16,267 nucleotides of DNA, from the IMG/VR virus record IMGVR_UViG_2778261227_000013, positions 1 through 16,267 of that record; one strand, given 5' to 3'. This stretch comes from a virus. Lineage: Duplodnaviria; Heunggongvirae; Uroviricota; Caudoviricetes. Position numbers and translations under genes: made by a program. Shown one piece after another: positions 3,749-14,657 of the stretch. The notes under the pieces were generated by a model. That model saw only the letters and a list, made by a program, of their open reading frames with translations, was not told the origin of the DNA and made no database searches. Every line of letters begins with the position of its first letter. The stretch's first letter is position 1.

Positions 3749-4420
3749 TCACCCTTCTTTTTCCAGTTGAGCCAGCCGCCCGGATATTTCTTCCAGTTTT
3801 TCCAGGGCTGGCTTGCAGGCCGCATCAATAACGTCCCGGACCATTCCGGCAAGCTGTTCTTCTGCTGTCGGCGTTGTTACTTCCACGCCCGATGGTTTCC
3901 CGCCCTTATCCCAAACACCAAGCGGCACGAGCGCAACGTGATCGATAAGAAATGGCGTACCCTCAATAAAAAAATTGTCCTCGCCCATTACATCAGGAAC
4001 TTCTGCCCCACCTGAGGCACCACAAAACACAACCGACGGACTGGTGGATACCTCCCCTCGGGCTTTCTGGATGTAATCGATGATTTCCTGTCCGTAAATC
4101 CGGCATACGCCCCACACCTCGTCACCGCGAATATACGGCAACATGACGGTGCCAATAATGCGCGACCGTTCGCCCACGTCTTCAAGGGTTTTGCTTTCGG
4201 GATGGTCGATAATGACGGGTACTCCGGCGCAACGTTCCAGGAACTGCGGATTGAGATAAGTTTGCGGTGAACGCCAGACAAATTCTTTTTCTTCGGCGCG
4301 GTAGGCCATTCCGGTTCCTGTGATACGCAGGTTAACCAGCCACATGTTGGAAAACTGATAAGGCGACGGTAGCTGTCCGTCCCGAATCTGCTTCGCCGCC
4401 TCAATTTCTGTTAAAAGCAT
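3749..4420 (-). CDS. Hypothetical protein (223 aa)
   Basis: Long ORF in operon arrangement with the downstream HTH gene. No clear Shine-Dalgarno before the ATG at 4420, so the start is uncertain. An imperfect hairpin lies in the upstream intergenic region. Confidence 0.6.
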   Translation of the reverse strand: MLLTEIEAAKQIRDGQLPSPYQFSNMWLVNLRITGTGMAYRAEEKEFVWRSPQTYLNPQFLERCAGVPVIIDHPESKTLEDVGERSRIIGTVMLPYIRGDEVWGVCRIYGQEIIDYIQKARGEVSTSPSVVFCGASGGAEVPDVMGEDNFFIEGTPFLIDHVALVPLGVWDKGGKPSGVEVTTPTAEEQLAGMVRDVIDAACKPALEKLEEISGRLAQLEKEG

Positions 4421-4484: not shown

Positions 4485-5063
4485 TCATGCCCCCGCGAGG
4501 CTTGCAGTGTTAATTTTGACCAGGCGACGGGGAGGGATTTTGAAAGCACTAAGCCAGTTATTCGGATCCCCCTGATATTCAGTAATCCGCCGTCCGGCTT
4601 CATCCATTCTTACGGTTTTACGCAAATAGCCCGGCGTATTTTCCACAGCCCACTGAACACTGTCTTTTGCAGCCTGGTAAATCTGATCTTCCAGCACCGC
4701 CAGCGTTGCAGAATCTGAAACGGAACGAATATCCACATCACTGAATTTTTTAGCCAGCTTCTGTGCACCAATTAATGCACGCTTGCGGTAATCCATCGAC
4801 TTTTCGCCAGCAAACGGGGCCGGAGCGCGACGCCCCATATTGCTGTATGCGGAATCCGCTTTGGCCTGGGCTTCTGCCAGTGAGGATTCATCTTCGACTG
4901 ACGCGACGATGTTTTGATTAGCGTTATCCTCTTTTATGAAATCCTGTGCGGGGATCGCATTCAGAATTTCGATAATCTCCTGCGGAGTGCTTCCCTGCGA
5001 CTCTGACAGAGCGTTAACCACCTCCATCAGTTTTAATCGCAAATCTTCTTTGCTTGCTGGCAT
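4485..5063 (-). CDS. Hypothetical protein (about 192 aa)
   Basis: The track ORF begins at a GTG at 5072. An ATG at 5063 preceded by GAGAGGTGG is the more likely start (MPASKEDLRLK...). Confidence 0.6.
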   Translation of the reverse strand: MPASKEDLRLKLMEVVNALSESQGSTPQEIIEILNAIPAQDFIKEDNANQNIVASVEDESSLAEAQAKADSAYSNMGRRAPAPFAGEKSMDYRKRALIGAQKLAKKFSDVDIRSVSDSATLAVLEDQIYQAAKDSVQWAVENTPGYLRKTVRMDEAGRRITEYQGDPNNWLSAFKIPPRRLVKINTASLAGA

Positions 5064-5102
5064 TTTTACCACCTCTCTTTTTTCACCAAAAAATCACGAC
5101 CA

Positions 5103-6654: not shown

Positions 6655-8403
6655 TTATAAAAATTCCTCGGTTCTCTCCGTTTGTATAACGTTGGTTTGT
6701 ATTCGTCCTTTAAAACCTCTTGTCAGGTATTCAGCCCCATATTCTCTTGCTGCTGACTTCATGGCCTTACCAAAATCACCGACACTTAATATTTCTTCTT
6801 CCCCCATATACTCCATAAAGGCGAGATATAGTCTGTACAGGCTTGTACGCGGATTAAGATCAGTTAATCTCTTACCGCCTCCCATCATCATCCCATGCGG
6901 TTCATCAAGAAATGCAAGCGCCGCACATAACCCAATGACAGGATCAGTTTCCTGTTTTATTTTCAGAGCTTCGGCACCGTCGCGCTGCTCCAACAATAAT
7001 TCCCGTGCTTTTTCTGGATCGGAAAAGTTAGCCAGTAATCGACGAATAATGACAGGTATTTCCGCCGCTATCTTTTGCGGTAACTCTTTATCCTTTTCGG
7101 TCTCCCTTACAATATTATCGAACCGAAAAATTACACGTCGACGCGCAACGCCTCCGGCCCGTTCGGTGAATGTCATCGGCACGTTATTTGTTGCCAGCAC
7201 GACGGACCTGATAATTGTTGTGAAACGCTTTTCATATTTCGGGTTAATTTCAACTGGATCTCCACCCGTTATTTTTTTGATGCCGGATCCTTCACCTGTA
7301 TATTTCGGCTGGTCTGCCAGGACAATAAGACGACTTCCGACAACCTGCGCACGCCCGCCAGCATCATCAAGCGATGTCATTTCAGCGCTTACCGTGTTCT
7401 GTTTCCCTGCCAGAAGGGTGGCTATGTGCGTGATTGTGCTCTTGCCGCTCCCGCCTTCCCCTGTGGCCTCAATAAACATCTGCCAGTCGTACCGGTTCGC
7501 CATAATCATGTACAGCGCGGCGCATATACGCATCATCTTTCGCGGGTCTTTTCCTGCGGCGTGATCAAGCCATTTATGAAAGTTTGGCGCGTTGTCGCGG
7601 ATGTTCTCCCCTGGTACTGGTGGCGTGTACTCAATGCCGTTATGCGTGGTGATCCAGTTATCCGGCGAGTGCGGGGAAAATTCGCCAGTTTTCATGTCAA
7701 GCACGCCATTAGAGAACGGCAATAAATCACCTGACGGTTCCCCCATTGGCCTGGCCATAACTTTTAAAGCATCCACTGCATTACTTATTGCTCTCCGACT
7801 AAACGATGTTCCGTTTTCTTCGTAAATAGCCACCATTTCACGACTAAGATCCAGTGTGCTTACCGGAACCCAAAAATCATCGCGCCAGACGTGGACAACC
7901 TCACTCTCCTGATTCATTGCTACATCCTGAAATCGTTCAGCTAAAAGTTTTGCCCTTTGGCTGTCCGCCATTCTGGAAAGAGATATTTTGTGTTTTTTCT
8001 CGGTCCTTCCTGACAGAATTTCTCCGCGCTCAGCCTGTTCGCGGATCCGTTGCAGGTAGTCGCGCCAGTTCTCCGGTTCCTGGTCGGTGATGCCTTTGTA
8101 TAATTTCGCCTCCTGTACGCCAGCCAGCGCCAGCTTTTCAGCGATAGCATTGATCTGGATTGGCTCGATCTCCCCCGCGAGATAGACACGCGCAAAGCGG
8201 CGTTTCTCGTCAATAATGCGGATATTCGCCAGGTCTGCCAGTTGCTTTGGTCCCAGATAAACAGGTGGCACGTTATCGCAGTGTTTTCGTCCTTCGCTTT
8301 CAATCCAGTGTTGGGCATGGGCGTAAGCATCCGTCCCGGCAAAAATGATTACCTCAGTGAATTTATCCTTCGGCTGATATTTCAAACTCGGTGCGTTTTT
8401 CAC
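6655..8403 (-). CDS. P4-type primase/helicase-like replication protein with D5-like NTPase (582 aa)
   Basis: Walker A GEGGSGKST and Walker B-like LIVLAD within a long ORF, followed directly by the iteron array. Family assignment is from recalled resemblance to phage/plasmid P4-family primase C-terminal regions. Start overlaps the upstream gene by 4 nt. Confidence 0.8.
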   Translation of the reverse strand: MKNAPSLKYQPKDKFTEVIIFAGTDAYAHAQHWIESEGRKHCDNVPPVYLGPKQLADLANIRIIDEKRRFARVYLAGEIEPIQINAIAEKLALAGVQEAKLYKGITDQEPENWRDYLQRIREQAERGEILSGRTEKKHKISLSRMADSQRAKLLAERFQDVAMNQESEVVHVWRDDFWVPVSTLDLSREMVAIYEENGTSFSRRAISNAVDALKVMARPMGEPSGDLLPFSNGVLDMKTGEFSPHSPDNWITTHNGIEYTPPVPGENIRDNAPNFHKWLDHAAGKDPRKMMRICAALYMIMANRYDWQMFIEATGEGGSGKSTITHIATLLAGKQNTVSAEMTSLDDAGGRAQVVGSRLIVLADQPKYTGEGSGIKKITGGDPVEINPKYEKRFTTIIRSVVLATNNVPMTFTERAGGVARRRVIFRFDNIVRETEKDKELPQKIAAEIPVIIRRLLANFSDPEKARELLLEQRDGAEALKIKQETDPVIGLCAALAFLDEPHGMMMGGGKRLTDLNPRTSLYRLYLAFMEYMGEEEILSVGDFGKAMKSAAREYGAEYLTRGFKGRIQTNVIQTERTEEFL

Positions 8404-9479: not shown

Positions 9480-9696
9480 GGTGCACCTCCTGCACATCAG
9501 CCATGATAATTTTTCCGGCCTTATCCAGTGCCTGATCGGCTTTTAGCTGCACAAATGCTAAATAATGGGAGATGCATTCTGATTCTCTGACTGCGTGTTT
9601 ATGCGCCACACCAGCGATAGCTGAAATCTCAATAAGTGAATCCATCAGCGTTTTGATAGCGTCTACCGCTGCATCAGGCCATGTTACATTACACAT
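9472..9696 (-). CDS. Hypothetical small protein (74 aa)
   Basis: AGGAGGTGGAG upstream of the ATG at 9696; 8-nt ATGTGTAA overlap with the upstream gene. Confidence 0.6.
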   Translation of the reverse strand: MCNVTWPDAAVDAIKTLMDSLIEISAIAGVAHKHAVRESECISHYLAFVQLKADQALDKAGKIIMADVQEVHHA

Positions 9697-10054
9697 GCTC
9701 CACCTCCTGGCGAATACGGGCAGCGAATACCATCACGCAGCCATCAGGGGATTGCTGGCGTGCTTCCTGTTCGCTGGTGGCCTCGATGTGAATTACGCGC
9801 GGTTGTGCTGTGCTCAGGGCGATAAAACGCCAGATAAAATTGTTCTCGCATTTCTGAATAAACAGCGTGTTTTCTTCGCGCCCTTTCCATGTTGCCGAGA
9901 TATAGCCCATGTCATTGAGCATCTCGCAGGCATCAACCAGCGTATCAGCAGCTACGTGTACAGTGTTTTTACCGTCAGCTATGCAATCACGGTGCACCGC
10001 CAGGAAGGTGTATATAAATTTAGGGTGAGTTTGGGTATGCTGTGTTCCAGCCAT
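9689..10054 (-). CDS. Hypothetical protein (121 aa), first gene of the leftward operon
   Basis: ATG at 10054 preceded by GAGGT. It is the C-terminal part of the 510-aa track ORF, whose upstream portion is judged non-coding or shadow. Confidence 0.6.
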   Translation of the reverse strand: MAGTQHTQTHPKFIYTFLAVHRDCIADGKNTVHVAADTLVDACEMLNDMGYISATWKGREENTLFIQKCENNFIWRFIALSTAQPRVIHIEATSEQEARQQSPDGCVMVFAARIRQEVEHV

Positions 10055-10143
10055 AATCGTTACCTCATTTAACGGTTTGGTTAGACGCCCCGCTACTGCC
10101 GCAAACAGTTCGGGGCGTTGTCGTTTACATCCTCTTACTGAGG

Positions 10144-10219
10144 TGTGATTTAAATTAAATTTAACTGAATCACAGGTCAAGTATTTTTTGTGATTCTTTT
10201 TTGTGTATACTGAATCACA
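10144..10219. promoter_or_regulatory. Divergent promoter/operator region with two 31-bp palindromes TGTGATT-N17-AATCACA
   Basis: Palindrome 1 at 10144-10174 and palindrome 2 at 10189-10219. Palindrome 2 encloses a TATACT -10-like hexamer (10206-10211) for the rightward gene. A leftward TTGACC -35-like hexamer (complement of 10175-10180) lies beside palindrome 1. Confidence 0.6.
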
Positions 10220-10241
10220 TCTTTTGTTTAGGAGAATGCAC

Positions 10242-10547
10242 ATGGCAAAAAACACTATCAACGACAAATCAAAACAGATTTCAATTCGTATCCCACATGA
10301 TGCTTTTGAAGGCATGGAATCCGTAAAACTGGACGGTGAAAGCAACGCCGGATTCATAGTAACCGCCATGCGCGGTGAGATCGCCCGCCGCCAGGCAGAA
10401 GGAAGCGGAGAAAATCCCCTGGTTTCTTCGCTCGATGCGCTGGCGCAGGTGGAAAAAATCGGAGTCAAAGCTGCCGAGGAGATCGGGCAGCTCGTCACCG
10501 TCGCACGTGAAGAACTCCAGCGCCGCAAGGCCAAAGAATCAGAATAA
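10242..10547 (+). CDS. Ribbon-helix-helix-like (Arc/MetJ/CopG-type) DNA-binding regulator (101 aa), tentative
   Basis: AGGAG 8 nt upstream of the ATG at 10242. N-terminal KQISIRIPHDAFEGMESV...NAGFIVTAMRGEIARRQ has the strand-helix-helix pattern; the C-terminus is charged and coiled-coil-like. Confidence 0.6.
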   Translation: MAKNTINDKSKQISIRIPHDAFEGMESVKLDGESNAGFIVTAMRGEIARRQAEGSGENPLVSSLDALAQVEKIGVKAAEEIGQLVTVAREELQRRKAKESE

Positions 10548-10604
10548 TAACTATCATCGCCGTGGTGTGAGGAACTCCGGCGCATTGCTTTACAGGTACA
10601 CAGA

Positions 10605-10799
10605 ATGACCAACAAAGAATCAACCAATACACCATCACCGGCACGGAAAAGACGGCGCAGAAAGATAGAGCATGAATCAGAAAGATTCGCGCCATGTGCT
10701 TTTGCCCTTGAGCAATTCCTTAAAGAGTACAGGCGCACAAAAATGGGATCGCATACCTGGAAAACATCGCGGCATGGCAATGTTAAAGAGCATGAATAG
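10605..10799 (+). CDS. Possible small basic protein (64 aa), hypothetical
   Basis: ORF downstream of and co-oriented with the RHH-like gene; weak AGGT upstream. Composition is plausible (K/R/E-rich), whereas the opposite-strand frame here is Cys/Ser-rich. Confidence 0.3.
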   Translation: MTNKESTNTPSPARKRRRRKIEHESERFAPCAFALEQFLKEYRRTKMGSHTWKTSRHGNVKEHE

Positions 10800-10829
10800 C
10801 CCACCAGCAAGCCAGCACACTGATCACAT

Positions 10830-11221
10830 TGCCCACCAGCCGCAAATCTGGCATTGTTGGCAATGTGTTCAAGTGTGTAGCTTTCCCACTGGTGGCCCTC
10901 TGCAGTCGCCTTTGTTTTATCCAGAACGAAATCAGACATCAGATTGATCAGCACCTGGTGACCTGACAAAATCGCATCAGTCGCGCCACCAGCAAAATTT
11001 TTTGCTTTCCGGACAGCGTGGCTAACGGCATTTTGCAGCAAAATATTCTGCATTTCTGGCGTACTGTAGTAACAGTGATCAGCGCCTTCACTCTGTGCGA
11101 CCACAACGCTATAATCTGCCTCGTAGACAGTAAGCAATATGGCGCAGTAGGCTATTCGTTCACAAAGGCGCTCCGGCAACGGGGCGCTTTCTCTTTTTGT
11201 AACGGTCAGAGCGTTACACAT
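10830..11221 (-). CDS. Candidate gene with unresolved 3' end (5' part of the 510-aa track ORF); possibly a remnant
   Basis: ATG at 11221 preceded by GGAGGA, with an 8-nt ATGTGTAA overlap to the antirepressor gene stop. The first roughly 130 codons look protein-like, but there is no in-frame stop until 9689. The 3' coordinate is approximate. Confidence 0.3.
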
Positions 11222-12014
11222 GGCTGTTTTCCTCCATGCGACGGGCTAACCAACGCTGCGAAAGACGAATTAATTCAGCCTTCCGCTGGTGGTAGTCCTG
11301 GCCTAACTCAATCAGCGTGATATTGCTCTGCTCAAGGTAAGAAAGGTGCTCAAGCTGCAACGTGCTCATGTGGTCGCGTGGTTCGCCTGTAATGCCGTTC
11401 GCCAGTGCCCACTGTTTTGCAGTCATGCCACCCAGCACGATACGCGCCAGCATGCTCGCTTCCGTGGTGTAGTGGTGCTGGAGTGTGTTTTTACCCAGTT
11501 CAGCCCGGTACGCCTCCAGCGCGGCACACATTGGCTTAAAGTAGCTGGCAACTGTGATACGGGCTTTCAGTTCCCGGCGTAACGCTGCGGAACGAACAGG
11601 CGCAACCTTGTGTAGCTCCTCCTCGCATTTGATAAAGTACTGGCGAACGGCGCGGCCCTGTTCGGTACGTTCGACCATCGCCAGTTCTTTCGCCATGTTC
11701 ACTGTGATGATGTACTCAAGAGCGGTTTGCTGGCGAGATTTTGCGCTCACCGGATCGGGTCGGCTCAAATATTCAACAACCTCATAATCCACGCCTTCCG
11801 TGAACCCGTATTCTTCAATGCGCCCCTTGATCCACGAACGGAAAACGCGCCCTACACCTAACGCCTTATGTAACGCTCTGGCGCTAACAATAGTGGTTTC
11901 ACTCCCGCCAATAACGCCGGAAATAATCGGGATAATTTCGCCGAAATTTTGCAGATTCTGGTTTTCAGTCCGAACGAAGCCCCGCCCCTGTACGGGCGTT
12001 TTTGGAAATTTCAT
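11214..12014 (-). CDS. Phage antirepressor-like protein (AntA N-terminal / KilAC-type C-terminal domains), 266 aa
   Basis: N-terminal ...TIVSARALHKALGVGRVFRSWIKGRIEEYGFTEGVDYEV... resembles the AntA/Bro-N type antirepressor signature as recalled. AGGAG 7 nt upstream of the ATG at 12014. Confidence 0.7.
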   Translation of the reverse strand: MKFPKTPVQGRGFVRTENQNLQNFGEIIPIISGVIGGSETTIVSARALHKALGVGRVFRSWIKGRIEEYGFTEGVDYEVVEYLSRPDPVSAKSRQQTALEYIITVNMAKELAMVERTEQGRAVRQYFIKCEEELHKVAPVRSAALRRELKARITVASYFKPMCAALEAYRAELGKNTLQHHYTTEASMLARIVLGGMTAKQWALANGITGEPRDHMSTLQLEHLSYLEQSNITLIELGQDYHQRKAELIRLSQRWLARRMEENSHV

Positions 12015-12091
12015 AAAAACTCCTGCTATCGAATTAAGTTACTTTTATTTGCTGGTGGATAGCTGGGGGCAATAGCCCCGTAGCCATTTAA

Positions 12092-12289
12092 TCAGGTAGC
12101 TGTTCCGCGTGATTCCGCAATACGCTGATTAATCCACTCGTCAATTTCACTCTCAACGAAAGCAATAGCTCGCGAGCCAATTTTAACTGATGCAGGAAAT
12201 TTACCTTGCCCCATAAGGCGATAAATCCATGCCTTGCTATATCCAGTTCTACGCTGAACTTCTGTTAAACGAATAAGCGTATTTGACAT
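12092..12289 (-). CDS. alpA: AlpA-family phage transcriptional regulator (65 aa)
   Basis: MSNTLIRLTEVQRRTGYSKAWIYRLMGQGKFPASVKIGSRAIAFVESEIDEWI matches the AlpA/MerR-like HTH family signature (YRL...GKFP..K.G.RA.A..ESE...WI). GAGGT upstream of the ATG at 12289. Confidence 0.85.
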   Translation of the reverse strand: MSNTLIRLTEVQRRTGYSKAWIYRLMGQGKFPASVKIGSRAIAFVESEIDEWINQRIAESRGTAT

Positions 12290-12358
12290 ATATTTACCTC
12301 ATAACGTCTACTCAATTTGACGAGGTAATCATGGCACAGAAATAACGAATATTTTCAT

Positions 12359-12502
12359 ACCCTCAGGCCTAATGGTTACCGGAAGGAAATTAACCCTAAG
12401 GGTGATGGTAATCGGGAGGAAATCTACCCTAAGGGTGATGGTAAAATTGACGGGGAAGATAAAAAAATACCCTCAGGGTAACAGTAAATCATCCTCAGGG
12501 TA
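12359..12502. promoter_or_regulatory. Upstream region of alpA with five ACCCT(A/C)AGGG palindromic boxes, including a 31-bp tandem duplication
   Basis: Boxes at 12359, 12393, 12426, 12469 and 12492. Copies at 12381-12411 and 12414-12444 are near-identical (GGA[A/G]GGAAAT[T/C][A/T]ACCCTAAGGGTGATGGTAA). Confidence 0.55.
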
Positions 12503-12516
12503 TGCGGTATGGTGCG

Positions 12517-13314
12517 TTAATCCGGCTTTGCGTTCTTTTGGCTGTTGTCTCGGTTAATAGGGCAGGCAGTCCTCTCTATGAGCGTTGCAAGTGCATTACT
12601 TGCCCCCCACTGCTTAAGCTCCCTGGTTATCGCTTCTTGATTTCCCCTGGTGGCAAAATCATTTTCTGGATCGTAATTGGCCCACTCTCTGTTTCTAATC
12701 TCAATAGCCTTAGCTAATGGGTCTTTATCCCAGTATTTATATAAGTGTATCGGGCGCTCTTGCTCTAACTGCTCTATCCTTGCCCTTAACTCTGCGTTTT
12801 CTTTTTCCAGCATTGCGATTTGGGATAATAAATCATCCTCTGTACGCAACTCTTTCTTTTCAATATCGCGTCCTTGTGCCTCGTCATTTTCAGAAGAGTT
12901 AGCGCCTTCCAGCTTCGTTAACGCGTCAAGGACATCGGGAAAAATTGCGAAAATTTCACCCCTTATAAATCCAATGTTCTCAAATTCGGGATCTTCCCAA
13001 TAACCGGACACCAGAAAACCATTTTCATCCCTCTCACCAGGTAAACAACCACGTTTCCGAACCGCATTCAGATTTCTATAAAGAACATCATAATCAAATT
13101 CATCCCGATACGGGTTACAAAAAGATTCCAACAGCTTAAATTCATTTACTGTGTACAGGCGGATATGTTCTCCGCTTATTCTCCTGAGTATCCAAGTTAT
13201 GACATCTGAAACATCATAATCATCACCAGCGACCTTAAGCACGACCTCAAGAAATTCACGTAAAGAAATAAAATCTTTTTTGTATTCGTTTAATTCGGCA
13301 TGAATATCAATCAT
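12517..13314 (-). CDS. Hypothetical protein (about 265 aa) with central coiled-coil; AT-rich cargo-like gene between int and alpA
   Basis: The track ORF starts at a GTG at 13320; an ATG at 13314 preceded by GAGGTG is more likely. Coiled-coil-like segment LSQIAMLEKENAELRARIEQLEQE. Visibly AT-rich relative to its neighbours. Confidence 0.65.
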   Translation of the reverse strand: MIDIHAELNEYKKDFISLREFLEVVLKVAGDDYDVSDVITWILRRISGEHIRLYTVNEFKLLESFCNPYRDEFDYDVLYRNLNAVRKRGCLPGERDENGFLVSGYWEDPEFENIGFIRGEIFAIFPDVLDALTKLEGANSSENDEAQGRDIEKKELRTEDDLLSQIAMLEKENAELRARIEQLEQERPIHLYKYWDKDPLAKAIEIRNREWANYDPENDFATRGNQEAITRELKQWGASNALATLIERTACPINRDNSQKNAKPD

Positions 13315-13442
13315 ACGCACACCTCAGCGTCCTCTACTGTAGTGGCTGTACCAGTCCGTCGAGGTGTACGGATTTTCGGGAGCGACCCTAGACACAGCCT
13401 TTTCTTTCGTCGCTCAAAGTCTACTACTGTATACGCAACCAG

Positions 13443-14657
13443 TCATCCACATTTTCCGAACTTGCCATGCACCACGTTACCGCCATGTTCGAGCGAATCC
13501 ATATAGTCGGCGTACCACTGGAGCATCTCGCGCCGCCCGTCCAGATATTGCGCATGATTGTACGTGCCACGAATTGAGTTCTTATCAACGTGTGCAAGCT
13601 GCGTTTCTATCCACGCGGTGTTATAGCCCTGCTCATGTAAAATCGTGCTCATGGTGTGCCGGAATCCATGACCAGTAACCTTTCCGTTATAGCCGATGCG
13701 TTTAAATACTTGGTTTATGCTAGCCTCGCTCATTGTTTTCCTTGGATCATTACGGCCGGGAAACATAAGCGGATAATTACCAGTTAATTCTTTAATCTGC
13801 CCAATAAGAGAAAGAGCCTGCTTAGACAAAGGCACCACATGAGGGCGACGCATTTTCATCCGTGAAGCAGGTATCTCCCAGATAGCCTTGTTGAGATCGA
13901 TTTCATCCCATAATGCACCGCGCAGTTCGCCAGTTCGCAAACCAGTGATAATCAGTAGACGAGCCGCCATAACAACCAATGCACTTCCTGAGTAACTGGA
14001 CAATGCCTTGAAAAAATCAGGCAATTCTTTGGCTGTGAGGAAAGGATAATGATTAGATTCATGGCCTTGCATCGCGCTAGTAAGATCTGGGGCAGGGTTA
14101 TACTCTGCGCGACCAGTGACTATTGCATAGCGGAAAACTTCCCCGCACCGCTGCCTCACTTTTTTGGCTTTTTCTGTAGCACCGCGCCCCTCGATGCGTC
14201 GCAGCACATTCAGAAGTTCAAGTGGTTTGATTTCGGCAATTGGTTTTTTGCCAATGTAAGGGAACACATCTTTGTTGAAGGCTTCGAGGATATCTGAAGC
14301 ATAACCAGCAGACCATTTTTTTAATTTGCTGCTGTGCCACTCAAGGGCAATATCTTTGAAGGTATTGTTTAACTGCGTTTCCCGGGCAATCTTTTCCTCT
14401 CGTTTCGCTTCCATCGGATCGATACCCCCAGCGATACCCCTTTTAGCTTCTTCACGTTTTGCACGAGCATCAGCCAAGGTAACTTCAGGATACACACCTA
14501 GTGCTAACAGCTTCTCTTTACCAGCTACACGATATTTAAAGCGCCAGTATTTTCCTCCACTAGGTTTTACCAGGAGATACAGACCACCACCATCAGCCAG
14601 CTTGTAAGCCTTCTCTTTTGGCTTGGCAGTGTCTATTTGACGGGCATTGAGTTTCAC
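13443..14657 (-). CDS. int: Tyrosine recombinase / phage integrase (P4-type, with N-terminal arm-binding domain), 404 aa
   Basis: N-terminus AKPKEKAYKLADGGGLYLLVKPSGGKYWRFKY is typical of P4-like integrases. C-terminal catalytic region contains HGFRHT and a terminal Y (GTYNHAQY). GTG start at 14657 with GGAGGT upstream. Directly adjacent to the tRNA 3' end. Confidence 0.93.
   Translation of the reverse strand: MKLNARQIDTAKPKEKAYKLADGGGLYLLVKPSGGKYWRFKYRVAGKEKLLALGVYPEVTLADARAKREEAKRGIAGGIDPMEAKREEKIARETQLNNTFKDIALEWHSSKLKKWSAGYASDILEAFNKDVFPYIGKKPIAEIKPLELLNVLRRIEGRGATEKAKKVRQRCGEVFRYAIVTGRAEYNPAPDLTSAMQGHESNHYPFLTAKELPDFFKALSSYSGSALVVMAARLLIITGLRTGELRGALWDEIDLNKAIWEIPASRMKMRRPHVVPLSKQALSLIGQIKELTGNYPLMFPGRNDPRKTMSEASINQVFKRIGYNGKVTGHGFRHTMSTILHEQGYNTAWIETQLAHVDKNSIRGTYNHAQYLDGRREMLQWYADYMDSLEHGGNVVHGKFGKCG

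What the first reader, a model, noticed from the sequence alone, without database searches (positions are those of the whole stretch)
12359..12502. Five ACCCT(A/C)AGGG palindromic boxes, two within a tandem 31-bp duplication, upstream of alpA
Regularly recurring perfect 5+1+5 palindromes in the alpA upstream region look like an operator array. Candidate binders are AlpA itself, the RHH-like protein, the antirepressor target, or the adjacent 265-aa protein. The duplicated unit suggests recent expansion of a binding site.
Basis: seen in the sequence. Interest (0 to 1): 0.5.

Follow-up and report, generated by a model that had tools for sequence, protein, structure and literature searches.

The report
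Operator array of a satellite regulator
The repeated ACCCT-N-AGGGT boxes in front of alpA are a real, conserved protein-binding array in a phage-satellite island, and comparative evidence points to the uncharacterised 265-aa protein encoded just upstream, not AlpA, as their reader, making it a candidate for the unidentified switch regulator of Gram-negative phage satellites.

Summary
The boxes are real but described imprecisely. Three are perfect ACCCTNAGGGT. Box 5 has one mismatch and box 1 has two. The tandem unit is 33 bp, not 31.

The window is an EcCIMP1-like phage-inducible chromosomal island (PICI) at tRNA-Thr/proA, with gene order int, ORF2 (265 aa), boxes, alpA, ant.

Across divergent islands the boxes persist while the DNA between them diverges. 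Box centres are spaced about 22, 33 or 43 bp apart, so they lie on one DNA face. One box sits 108-109 nt from the alpA ATG in most of the related islands examined.

In 80 loci chosen by AlpA homology, 39 have an ORF2 homologue and at least two boxes; 41 have neither. Loci whose AlpA is 97% identical but which lack ORF2 have no boxes. Natural chimeras show the boxes go with ORF2's conserved C-terminal domain. Distant ORF2 relatives carry variant boxes of the form AC..T-N-A..GT.

Islands with other proteins in the same slot carry other repeats. ORF2 has no Pfam family and no convincing structural match.

Best reading: the boxes are ORF2's operator array and control the alpA master switch. Whether ORF2 represses or activates is unresolved. 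Binding is inferred, not shown.

The parts
12359..12369 (.). Box 1, the site nearest the promoter. It is degenerate: ACCCTCAGGcc on the plus strand, GGCCTGAGGGT in the alpA sense. Its centre is 75 nt upstream of the alpA ATG.
   Evidence: A conserved '..C(C/T)TGAGGGTATGA' element occupies the same position in divergent islands.
12393..12403 (.). Box 2, a perfect ACCCTAAGGGT. Its centre is 109 nt upstream of the alpA ATG.
   Evidence: Most of the 24 distinct box layouts have a box at 107-109 nt.
12426..12436 (.). Box 3, a perfect ACCCTAAGGGT, centre at 142 nt. It lies in the second copy of the 33-bp unit.
12469..12479 (.). Box 4, a perfect ACCCTCAGGGT (13-mer TACCCTCAGGGTA), centre at 185 nt.
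   Evidence: On the minus strand it is followed by T7 and was flagged as terminator-like. That T-run is not conserved in other lineages.
12491..12501 (.). Box 5, AtCCTCAGGGT with 1 mismatch, centre at 207 nt. It lies 15 nt after the ORF2 stop codon.
   Evidence: It is a perfect ACCCTCAGGGT in other strains.
12372..12444 (.). Tandem repeat with a 33-bp period and 2.2 copies. It carries boxes 2 and 3.
   Evidence: Copy number is 1, 2 or 3 among E. coli genomes. Another variant has a 22-bp deletion that fuses boxes 4 and 5.
12517..13314 (-). ORF2, 265 aa, the proposed reader of the boxes. It has an acidic, variable N-terminal domain, a leucine-zipper-like coiled coil (about aa 159-186) and a conserved C-terminal helical domain (about aa 186-255, DNA 12550-12759).
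   Evidence: It co-occurs perfectly with the boxes. The start ATG at 13314 has a GAGG Shine-Dalgarno sequence 7 nt upstream. It has no Pfam, PHROG-function or PADLOC match.
12092..12289 (-). alpA (65 aa; Phage_AlpA/HTH_17). It is the gene downstream of the array and the master activator of the PICI cycle in characterised relatives.
   Evidence: PMC6092414 and PMC11773190.
12294..12328 (-). Hairpin in the alpA leader that pairs the ribosome-binding site (GAGG) with an upstream complementary segment.
   Evidence: The stems differ in sequence between lineages but keep their pairing.
13331..13398 (-). Rfam int-alpA RNA motif (RF02996). Here it lies between int and ORF2, so it is the leader of ORF2 rather than of alpA. 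Included for context.
   Evidence: It has the same placement in 14 other loci.

Best explanation
The five boxes are the cognate operator array of the island's own 265-aa protein, ORF2 (12517-13314, minus strand).

ORF2 belongs to an uncharacterised family with three parts: a variable N-terminal domain, a leucine-zipper-like coiled coil, and a conserved helical domain of about 70 aa at the extreme C-terminus.

Proposed mechanism:
- Coiled-coil dimers place two C-terminal domains on each 11-bp palindrome ACCCT-N-AGGGT.
- The 3-6 sites lie on one face of the DNA, with centres about 22, 33 or 43 bp apart. They run from beside the core alpA promoter to just after the ORF2 stop codon. This geometry allows cooperative assembly.
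- The assembly sets the output of the weak alpA promoter, for which no sigma-70 consensus match was found. It thereby sets the master switch for satellite excision and replication.
- The variable N-terminal domain is the input side, most plausibly contacted by a helper-phage protein.

My preferred sign is repression. In this view ORF2 holds the self-activating alpA off until the helper phage arrives, analogous to Stl in staphylococcal islands.

Shown here: the boxes, their conservation, their phasing, their copy-number polymorphism, and their exclusive association with the ORF2 C-terminal domain.

Inferred: physical binding, dimerisation, the sign of regulation, and the phage input.
For: 1. 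Statistics: 3 perfect boxes against 0.03 expected.

2. Phylogenetic footprint. In islands whose spacers cannot be aligned, the boxes persist. Information content is about 2 bits at ACCCT/AGGGT, about 0.1 at the centre base, and under 0.8 in the flanks.

3. Phasing. 53 inter-box gaps from 24 distinct layouts cluster at 21-24, 32-34 and 42-44 bp. Vector strength is 0.84 at a 10.5-bp period. Natural indels are 33 and 22 bp.

4. Association. In 80 AlpA-selected loci, ORF2 and boxes co-occur as 39/0/0/41. Int, AlpA, Ant and seven other island genes show no association.

5. AlpA independence. Loci with a 97%-identical AlpA (L092-L096) and the 81%-identical EcCIMP1 have no boxes.

6. Domain mapping. 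ORF2 homologues down to 28-50% identity keep only the C-terminal domain (about aa 171-257) and still keep the boxes. Chimeras with an L111-type N-domain and an ORF2-type C-domain carry ACCCTNAGGGT and no CTTCCA repeats.

7. Co-variation in distant members:
- Salmonella P0036 goes with ACCGTGAGGGT/CCCCTCACGGT, 22 bp apart.
- Cedecea and Xenorhabdus go with ACCCTGAGAGT/ACCATGATAGT.
- Metagenomic P0037 goes with ACTATNATAGT.
- Pasteurellaceae go with ACTATGATAGT.

8. In the prophage-like locus L052, an ORF2-like gene is followed by four boxes although no alpA is adjacent.

9. A remote homologue of the C-domain (L092 family; hhalign 87.5%, E 3.6e-6) goes with a different motif.

10. Every other protein family in the same slot has its own repeat motif upstream of alpA.

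11. The alpA upstream region is the phage-responsive control region in the relative EcCIMP1 (reporter spanning -449 to +50) and in EcCICFT073 (PMC11773190, PMC6092414).
Against: - No binding experiment exists.
- ORF2 has no recognisable DNA-binding domain. Pfam, PHROGs and PDB sequence searches give only coiled-coil hits.
- The proteins are acidic (pI 4.5-5.7). The C-domain has a net charge of only 0 to +3.
- The boxes start 15 nt after the ORF2 stop codon. Co-inheritance of the C-terminal coding region and the boxes, including in the chimeras, could therefore partly reflect physical linkage.
- The transcription start site is unknown. No sigma-70 consensus promoter was found, so the positions of the sites relative to the promoter are not fixed. 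That leaves the sign of regulation open. An array lying mostly upstream of the core promoter is at least as typical of activators as of repressors.
- The residue-to-base co-variation is not clean. L052 lacks the RGNQ segment yet has ACCCTCAGGGT boxes.
Confidence: 0.42

Rival explanations
1. Same reader, opposite sign. ORF2 bound to the phased array acts as an activator or recruiter for the weak alpA promoter. It becomes active, or is made, only when a helper-phage cue reaches its N-terminal domain or its structured leader.
For: - No sigma-70-like promoter is detected in the gap.
- With either plausible -10 element, the degenerate proximal box lies near -43 to -46 and the strong boxes lie further upstream. 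This layout resembles OmpR/PhoB-type or class II activators.
- alpA promoters of related islands are known to be activated, not derepressed (PMC6092414, PMC11773190).
- The N-terminal domain is acidic.
- The slot-2 gene has a conserved structured leader, the int-alpA RNA, which suggests its own synthesis is controlled.
Against: - An island-encoded protein that is present before the phage arrives must keep alpA off by default.
- The great diversity of slot-2 families, each with a private operator, and the shuffling of N-domains look like immunity or repressor modules such as SaPI Stl. Satellite late-promoter activators (Ogr/Delta) are conserved by comparison.
- The transcription start site is not known.
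Confidence: 0.3
2. The boxes are read by a protein not encoded next to them, either a helper-phage regulator or a host factor. ORF2 is a linked partner that modulates this protein, for example as an acidic decoy or adaptor binding it through the conserved C-domain, rather than touching DNA itself.
For: - ORF2 is acidic and lacks a recognisable DNA-binding fold.
- alpA promoters of ORF2-less relatives respond to an unidentified phage factor (PMC6092414, PMC11773190).
- Physical linkage could explain the co-inheritance.
Against: - It needs an extra, unseen component that co-varies with ORF2 across Enterobacterales, Pasteurellaceae and a prophage-like element.
- tblastn of the ORF2 C-domain against 50,697 phage genomes found nothing.
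- Apart from satellite/island loci that also encode AlpA, Int or an ORF2-type domain, box pairs in viral contigs occur only in contigs that have none of these.
- No other island gene associates with the boxes.
Confidence: 0.15
3. The boxes are AlpA's own autoregulatory sites.
For: AlpA activates its own promoter in EcCICFT073 and EcCIMP1. The boxes lie upstream of alpA.
Against: - A nearly identical AlpA (63 of 65 residues, identical from residue 5 to the end) occurs in five loci with no box at all.
- EcCIMP1 has none in 22 kb.
- The same class of 5-N-5 boxes (AC..T-N-A..GT) occurs next to AlpA-like proteins only 23-27% identical, and in L052 without an adjacent alpA.
Confidence: 0.03
4. The boxes are not a protein operator. 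They are instead a structural or RNA-level repeat, such as a terminator, a REP-like element, integrase arm sites or a replication origin.
For: Box 4 followed by a T-run was flagged as terminator-like. The array lies directly after a stop codon.
Against: - A 5-bp stem with a 1-nt loop cannot fold as a hairpin, so the palindromes cannot act as RNA stems.
- The T-run is not conserved.
- No Rfam family matches the region; the only match in 12000-13500 is the int-alpA RNA, outside the boxes.
- The boxes are 2.3 kb from the tRNA-Thr att site and about 4 kb from the primase gene.
- Helical phasing and a fixed distance to the alpA ATG point to promoter-linked protein binding.
Confidence: 0.03

Closest known systems
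SaPI Stl master repressors and their operators (Gram-positive PICIs)
   Same: - An island-encoded regulator sits next to int and controls the switch that starts the satellite cycle.
- Stl sequences are known to be very diverse between islands (established knowledge); here the slot-2 proteins are very diverse.
- The part not assigned to DNA reading is variable; in Stl that part is contacted by helper-phage proteins, whereas for ORF2 such contact is only proposed.
- There are multiple cognate sites.
   Different: - No HTH domain is detectable in ORF2.
- ORF2 is transcribed in the same direction as its target, whereas stl/str are divergent.
- The target is the promoter of an activator gene (alpA).
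- Repression and phage-mediated derepression are untested here.
alpA promoters of Gram-negative PICIs EcCICFT073 and EcCIMP1 (PMC6092414, PMC11773190)
   Same: - Same kind of island; EcCIMP1 uses the same tRNA-Thr/proA site.
- Same int ... alpA ... ant ... primase layout.
- The alpA upstream region is the helper-responsive, AlpA-autoactivated control region.
   Different: - EcCIMP1 has no gene between int and alpA and no ACCCTNAGGGT box.
- By the 2018 paper's ORF numbering, EcCICFT073 appears to have no such gene either. I did not examine its sequence.
- No operator or island-encoded regulator has been defined for either island. [quoted passage not shown]
P4 late promoters (P_LL/P_sid) activated by Ogr/Delta
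   Same: A satellite promoter upstream of the alpA homologue vis is controlled through a dyad-symmetric upstream site in response to the helper phage (established knowledge; context in PMC10111431).
   Different: - The P4 site is a single TGT-N12-ACA dyad near -55, read by a zinc-finger activator encoded by the phage or by P4.
- No TGT-N12-ACA exists in this gap.
- Here there are 3-6 short 5-N-5 palindromes tied to a neighbouring island gene.
Phage immunity modules (CI/Cro-type repressors with OR/OL operator triplets)
   Same: - Several similar palindromic operators allow cooperative binding.
- Modules are swapped as regulator-plus-operator cassettes, giving many specificities in one genomic slot.
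   Different: - Those operators are 14-17 bp with half-sites about one helical turn apart, and they overlap the core promoters.
- Here the boxes are 11 bp with half-site centres 6 bp apart. The conserved domain is C-terminal to a coiled coil and has no family assignment.
Rfam int-alpA RNA motif (RF02996)
   Same: It is a conserved non-coding element of the same int-alpA region of these islands.
   Different: - It is an RNA structure located at 13331-13398, upstream of ORF2.
- It does not overlap the boxes.

Membership tests
Transcription-factor operator array (generic) | Short motif over-represented locally relative to chance | tested here: met
   6 strand-matches (3 palindromic sites) against 0.03 expected; 0 of 200 shuffles reach this.
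Transcription-factor operator array (generic) | Motif conserved across diverged relatives while the flanking DNA drifts | tested here: met
   In 43 unique regions, flanks carry under 0.8 bit and the centre base is free.
Transcription-factor operator array (generic) | Fixed geometry relative to a promoter or gene, and helical phasing of the sites | tested here: met
   Most layouts have a box at 107-109 nt from the alpA ATG. Gaps are about 22, 33 or 43 bp, with vector strength 0.84 at 10.5 bp.
Transcription-factor operator array (generic) | Demonstrated occupancy by a protein | not testable with these tools
   This needs an EMSA, a footprint or ChIP.
AlpA autoregulatory sites | Sites present wherever the same AlpA, with the same recognition helix, is present | tested here: not met
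   A 97%-identical AlpA occurs with no boxes. EcCIMP1 has none.
SaPI Stl-type master repressor module | Island-encoded regulator adjacent to int, with cognate sites in front of the operon that starts the cycle | tested here: met
   The order int, ORF2, boxes, alpA is conserved in 39 loci and in Pasteurellaceae. Binding itself is only inferred.
SaPI Stl-type master repressor module | Recognisable HTH DNA-binding domain | tested here: not met
SaPI Stl-type master repressor module | Divergent transcription of the regulator and the regulated operon | tested here: not met
   ORF2 and alpA are on the same strand.
SaPI Stl-type master repressor module | Repression relieved by binding of a helper-phage protein | not testable with these tools
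   The only indirect hint is that N-terminal domains are variable and shuffled.
P4-type Ogr/Delta-dependent late promoter | TGT-N12-ACA dyad upstream of the promoter | tested here: not met
   None in 12290-12516.
Rfam int-alpA RNA (RF02996) | Match to the covariance model over the feature | tested here: not met
   The only match is at 13331-13398. Nothing matches in the box region even at E up to 1.
Integrase arm-type or excisionase sites | Location within a few hundred bp of the att core | tested here: not met
   The boxes lie 2.3 kb from the tRNA-Thr gene, with int and ORF2 in between.
Intrinsic terminator or REP-like hairpins | Palindrome able to fold (loop of at least 3 nt), followed by a conserved U-run | tested here: not met
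   The boxes have 5-bp arms with a 1-nt spacer. Only box 4 was flagged, using a shortened stem. The T-run is absent in other lineages.

The most novel reading that the evidence does not exclude
The gene slot between int and alpA of Gram-negative phage satellites holds the missing helper-sensing master regulators of these elements. The slot contains at least nine unrelated, unannotated protein families, each with a private operator array in front of alpA. ORF2 and its ACCCT-N-AGGGT boxes are one such pair. In this reading ORF2's conserved C-terminal domain is a previously unrecognised DNA-binding fold placed after a coiled coil, and its shuffled N-terminal domains determine which helper phage can induce the island.
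Probability: 0.35. Interest if true: 0.8.

Novelty: new variant of a known kind. Interest (0 to 1): 0.62.

Why it matters
How Gram-negative PICIs are kept silent and how they sense their helper phage is an open question. [quoted passage not shown] The 2025 EcCIMP1 study still defines only a phage-responsive region of about 500 bp (PMC11773190).

This analysis supplies three things:
- a defined cis element, with base-level coordinates;
- a specific candidate trans factor from a protein family with no annotation;
- a general rule (int, structured leader, variable regulator, private operators, alpA) that holds across Enterobacterales and, for ORF2-family members, Pasteurellaceae.

All of this can be tested with simple EMSA, reporter and deletion experiments. 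If confirmed, it would explain helper specificity of these satellites. That matters because the satellites move virulence and defence genes. It would also add a new DNA-binding domain family and provide orthogonal regulator-operator pairs.

Tried and rejected
- The antirepressor and other island genes as correlates of the boxes: no association.
- Known families for ORF2: Pfam, PHROGs, PADLOC and PDB sequence searches gave only coiled-coil noise.
- ORF2 C-domain in 50,697 phage genomes: no match.
- Literature search for the box sequences, the protein accession and PICI regulators: nothing relevant.
- Promoter scan: no sigma-70 consensus in the gap. I could not fix the transcription start site, so I could not decide between repression and activation. 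Two candidate -10 elements (CATGAT and GATTAC) were considered, and neither is compelling.
- Ogr/Delta dyad: absent.
- RNA family over the boxes: none.
- Attempt to tie one protein segment (..TRGNQ..) to the box sequence: not consistent, because L052 lacks the segment but has perfect boxes.
- Viral contigs that contain box pairs but no AlpA or ORF2 (for example L063, L068): unrelated repeats with 18-19-bp spacing, set aside.

Full report
**1. What is in the sequence**

The interval 12359-12502 holds five copies of a 5-N-5 palindrome.
- Three are exact ACCCTNAGGGT: 12393-12403, 12426-12436 and 12469-12479. The window-wide count is 6 strand-matches against 0.03 expected, and none of 200 shuffles reaches it.
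- Box 5 (12491-12501, AtCCTCAGGGT) has one mismatch.
- Box 1 (12359-12369, ACCCTCAGGcc) has two mismatches.
- The tandem duplication has a 33-bp period, not 31. It spans 12372-12444 with 2.2 copies and 87% matches, and it carries boxes 2 and 3.
- Box centres are 34, 33, 43 and 22 bp apart.
- No comparable site exists elsewhere in the 16-kb window.

**2. Context**

The window is a chromosomal island inserted at tRNA-Thr next to proA. All of the following genes are on the minus strand:
- int, 13443-14657
- a 265-aa protein with no Pfam match, 'ORF2', 12517-13314
- a 227-bp gap holding the boxes
- alpA, 12092-12289 (Phage_AlpA)
- an AntA/AntB antirepressor
- a D5_N-type primase gene (6655-8403), further downstream

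This is the layout and the integration site of the characterised satellite EcCIMP1. In EcCIMP1, alpA is the master regulator, and a reporter spanning -449 to +50 of alpA is switched on by the helper phage and boosted by AlpA itself (PMC11773190). The founding paper on Gram-negative PICIs likewise shows AlpA auto-activation and helper-dependent alpA transcription. It also says that a global repressor has not been identified (PMC6092414).

**3. The boxes are under selection**

The gap sequence occurs in 148 of 5,426 complete E. coli genomes.
- Among E. coli strains the 33-bp unit occurs once, twice or three times. Another variant has lost exactly 22 bp, fusing boxes 4 and 5. Box 5 is perfect in most strains.
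- In more distant islands the DNA between the boxes cannot be aligned, yet the boxes remain. These include Kluyvera, Raoultella, Pantoea, Symbiopectobacterium and many viral-contig entries.
- I compiled 145 boxes (at most 1 mismatch) from 43 unique ORF2-alpA gaps. The ten specified positions are near 2 bits, partly by construction of the selection. The centre base carries 0.14 bit and the flanks under 0.8 bit.
- Gaps between adjacent centres cluster at 21-24, 32-34 and 42-44 bp. Over 53 gaps from 24 distinct layouts, vector strength is 0.84 at a 10.5-bp period. In most layouts one box sits 107-109 nt from the alpA ATG.
- A degenerate element, '..C(C/T)TGAGGGTATGA', is conserved at the box 1 position nearest the promoter.

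These are the properties of a cooperative protein-binding array on one face of the DNA, linked to the alpA promoter.

**4. Who reads them**

I fetched 80 loci from viral contigs by AlpA homology alone.
- 39 have an ORF2 homologue directly upstream and at least two boxes. 41 have neither. There are no exceptions.
- Of eleven island genes tested, only ORF2 shows this pattern. Int, AlpA, Ant, the 510-aa protein and the small ORFs do not.
- AlpA identity does not predict boxes. Five loci have an AlpA differing only at residues 2 and 4 and have no box. EcCIMP1 (81% identical AlpA, no ORF2) has none in 22 kb.
- ORF2 homologues fall to 28-50% identity, and many share only residues about 171-257, yet they keep the boxes.
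- Three loci (L098, L129, L134) encode natural chimeras. Their N-domain comes from another slot-2 family (L111 type) and their C-domain is ORF2-type. They carry ACCCTNAGGGT boxes and no CTTCCA repeats. Genuine L111-family loci do the opposite.
- A prophage-like contig (L052) encodes a 258-aa protein with the ORF2 C-domain (HMM E 4e-10). It is followed within 10 nt by four boxes at 34/33-bp spacing, although no alpA is adjacent.

Loci chosen by ORF2 homology in 185,579 species genomes, and by exact-protein look-ups, keep the synteny ORF2-like gene, then a 140-230-bp gap, then an AlpA-like gene. They carry related 5-N-5 boxes that drift with the protein:
- ACCGTGAGGGT in Salmonella P0036
- ACCCTGAGAGT/ACCATGATAGT in Cedecea, Atlantibacter and Xenorhabdus
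- ACTATNATAGT in metagenomic P0037
- ACTATGATAGT in Pasteurellaceae

The family-wide form is AC..T-N-A..GT.

A caveat applies to all of this. The boxes begin 15 nt after the ORF2 stop codon, so linkage alone would carry the C-terminal coding DNA and the boxes together. The argument therefore rests on persistence over deep divergence, not on co-occurrence alone.

**5. What ORF2 is**

- The family is small: 122 clusters at 50% identity among 1.8 billion representative proteins. The conserved domain is almost always at the extreme C-terminus of proteins of about 150-350 aa, behind unrelated N-termini.
- None of 98 members has a Pfam family. PHROGs, PADLOC and PDB sequence searches give nothing but coiled-coil hits. 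No homologue is found in 50,697 phage genomes.
- AlphaFold models (pLDDT 75 for the full length and 78 for the C-terminal 109 aa) show three parts: an alpha/beta N-domain, a disordered acidic linker with a long helix (about 159-186, heptad leucines), and a four-helix C-terminal bundle.
- The proteins are acidic (pI 4.5-5.7) and the C-domain is roughly neutral. This is a point against direct DNA binding.

**6. A general pattern**

In AlpA-selected loci without ORF2, the same slot between int and alpA holds other co-directional genes of 200-350 aa. They belong to at least eight further families. One is DUF6387 and the rest are unannotated.

Most of these families come with their own repeat motif in front of alpA; none was evident for two of them (L138, L147):
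- ACCGCAATTGCGGT, two copies
- CACTTCCA direct repeats
- TAATGGTGGGT-type motifs
- TTGCATGCA
- TGACATGACA
- CACCTGGATTG
- TACCGGAAT

The TAATGGTGGGT family has a C-terminus remotely homologous to ORF2's (hhalign 87.5%, E 3.6e-6).

The Rfam int-alpA RNA motif (RF02996) lies just upstream of the slot-2 gene in this window (13331-13398) and in 14 other loci from several families. The general architecture is therefore int, structured leader, variable regulator, private operators, alpA.

**7. Mechanism**

The most economical reading is that ORF2 dimers, formed through the coiled coil, read each palindrome with the C-terminal domain. They assemble cooperatively along one DNA face and control the alpA promoter.

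That promoter has no sigma-70 consensus. Candidate -10 elements just upstream of the leader hairpin would put box 1 near -43 to -46 and the strong boxes further upstream, but the start site is unknown.

- I favour repression, at about 55% given that ORF2 binds. An island-encoded protein present before infection must keep a self-activating, toxic switch off. The diversity of the slot and the shuffling of N-domains resemble immunity and Stl-type modules.
- Activation remains a serious rival. The array lies mostly upstream of the core promoter, and related alpA promoters are known to be activated.

My probabilities are:
- the boxes are a functional protein-binding array: about 0.9
- the full statement including repression: about 0.4

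**8. Comparison and novelty**

The module works like a satellite or phage immunity module (SaPI Stl; CI with its operators). It sits where P4 has its helper-activated late promoter in front of vis. It fails the membership tests for each of these:
- no HTH domain is detectable
- ORF2 is co-directional with its target, not divergent
- there is no TGT-N12-ACA dyad
- it does not overlap the int-alpA RNA

Neither the boxes nor the protein appears in the searchable literature. I rate it a new variant of a known kind. It is directly relevant to the open question of how Gram-negative PICIs are held silent and how they sense helper phages.

**9. Side observation on the alpA leader**

The last ~35 nt before alpA (12294-12328) can fold into a hairpin. 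It pairs the ribosome-binding site with an upstream complementary segment.
- In 55 unique leaders, 35 have stems of at least 9 bp, against 2% of shuffled controls.
- Different lineages use different stem sequences, such as CTCGTAA/TTACGAG, CTCCTGTAG/CTACAGGAG, CTCCCGT/ACGGGAG and CACCTT/AAGGTG.

This suggests translational gating of alpA. One possibility is that read-through transcripts from int/ORF2 stay untranslated. I did not pursue it further.

Noticed in passing
window 13331-13398 (-): The Rfam int-alpA RNA motif (RF02996; 45.5 bits against a gathering score of 35.8) lies between int and ORF2. It is therefore the leader of the slot-2 gene, not of alpA. The same placement occurs in 14 other loci with different slot-2 families. 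In this window the U-run of the consensus is replaced.
   Followed up: partly
window 12294-12328 (-): A hairpin in the alpA leader pairs the Shine-Dalgarno GAGG with an upstream anti-SD segment. 35 of 55 unique leaders have stems of at least 9 bp, against 2% of shuffled controls. Stem sequences differ between lineages but keep their pairing, which suggests translational gating of alpA.
   Followed up: partly
L092, L099, L101, L104, L111, L123, L141 (alpA upstream regions): Other protein families occupying the int-alpA slot each come with a private repeat motif upstream of alpA: TAATGGTGGGT-type, ACCGCAATTGCGGT (two copies), TTGCATGCA, TGACATGACA, CACTTCCA direct repeats, CACCTGGATTG and TACCGGAAT. 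One family is DUF6387; the rest have no annotation.
   Followed up: partly
L098, L129, L134: Natural chimeric slot-2 proteins have an N-domain homologous to the L111 family fused to the ORF2-type C-domain. This shows domain shuffling within the slot.
   Followed up: yes
L052 5476-6345: In a prophage-like contig, an ORF2-like gene follows a Cro-like HTH gene. Four ACCCTNAGGGT-type boxes come after it, and then a convergent XRE-family gene, with no alpA adjacent. Which promoter the boxes serve there is unclear.
   Followed up: partly
L068 (whole locus), L063 4508-6972: Unrelated metagenomic viral contigs carry many ACCCTNAGGGT pairs 18-19 bp apart (21 boxes in 14 kb of a 127-kb contig), with no AlpA or ORF2 homologue. 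This is probably a different repeat or regulatory motif.
   Followed up: no
window 9689-11221 (-): A 510-aa ORF overlaps the antirepressor start by 8 nt and has no Pfam match. Its last ~50 residues match PHROGs annotated as 'transcriptional repressor' (phrog_6196 at 1.7e-29, phrog_1743 at 1e-27).
   Followed up: no
window 3749-4420 and 4485-5072 (-): Two adjacent ORFs match the middle (profile positions 115-328 of 545) and the C-terminal part (409-545) of the same PHROG, phrog_6216. This suggests a split or frameshifted gene.
   Followed up: no
L007 19021-19036 (EcCIMP1 alpA upstream): EcCIMP1 has no ACCCTNAGGGT box, but it contains a single AGGGTA-GAGC-TACCCT dyad with the same half-sites in the opposite arrangement. 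This may be chance.
   Followed up: no
window 12468-12480 (-): Box 4 followed by T7 was flagged as a terminator-like site (5-bp stem, 3-nt loop). It could weakly terminate read-through from ORF2 in this lineage only, because the T-run is not conserved elsewhere.
   Followed up: partly
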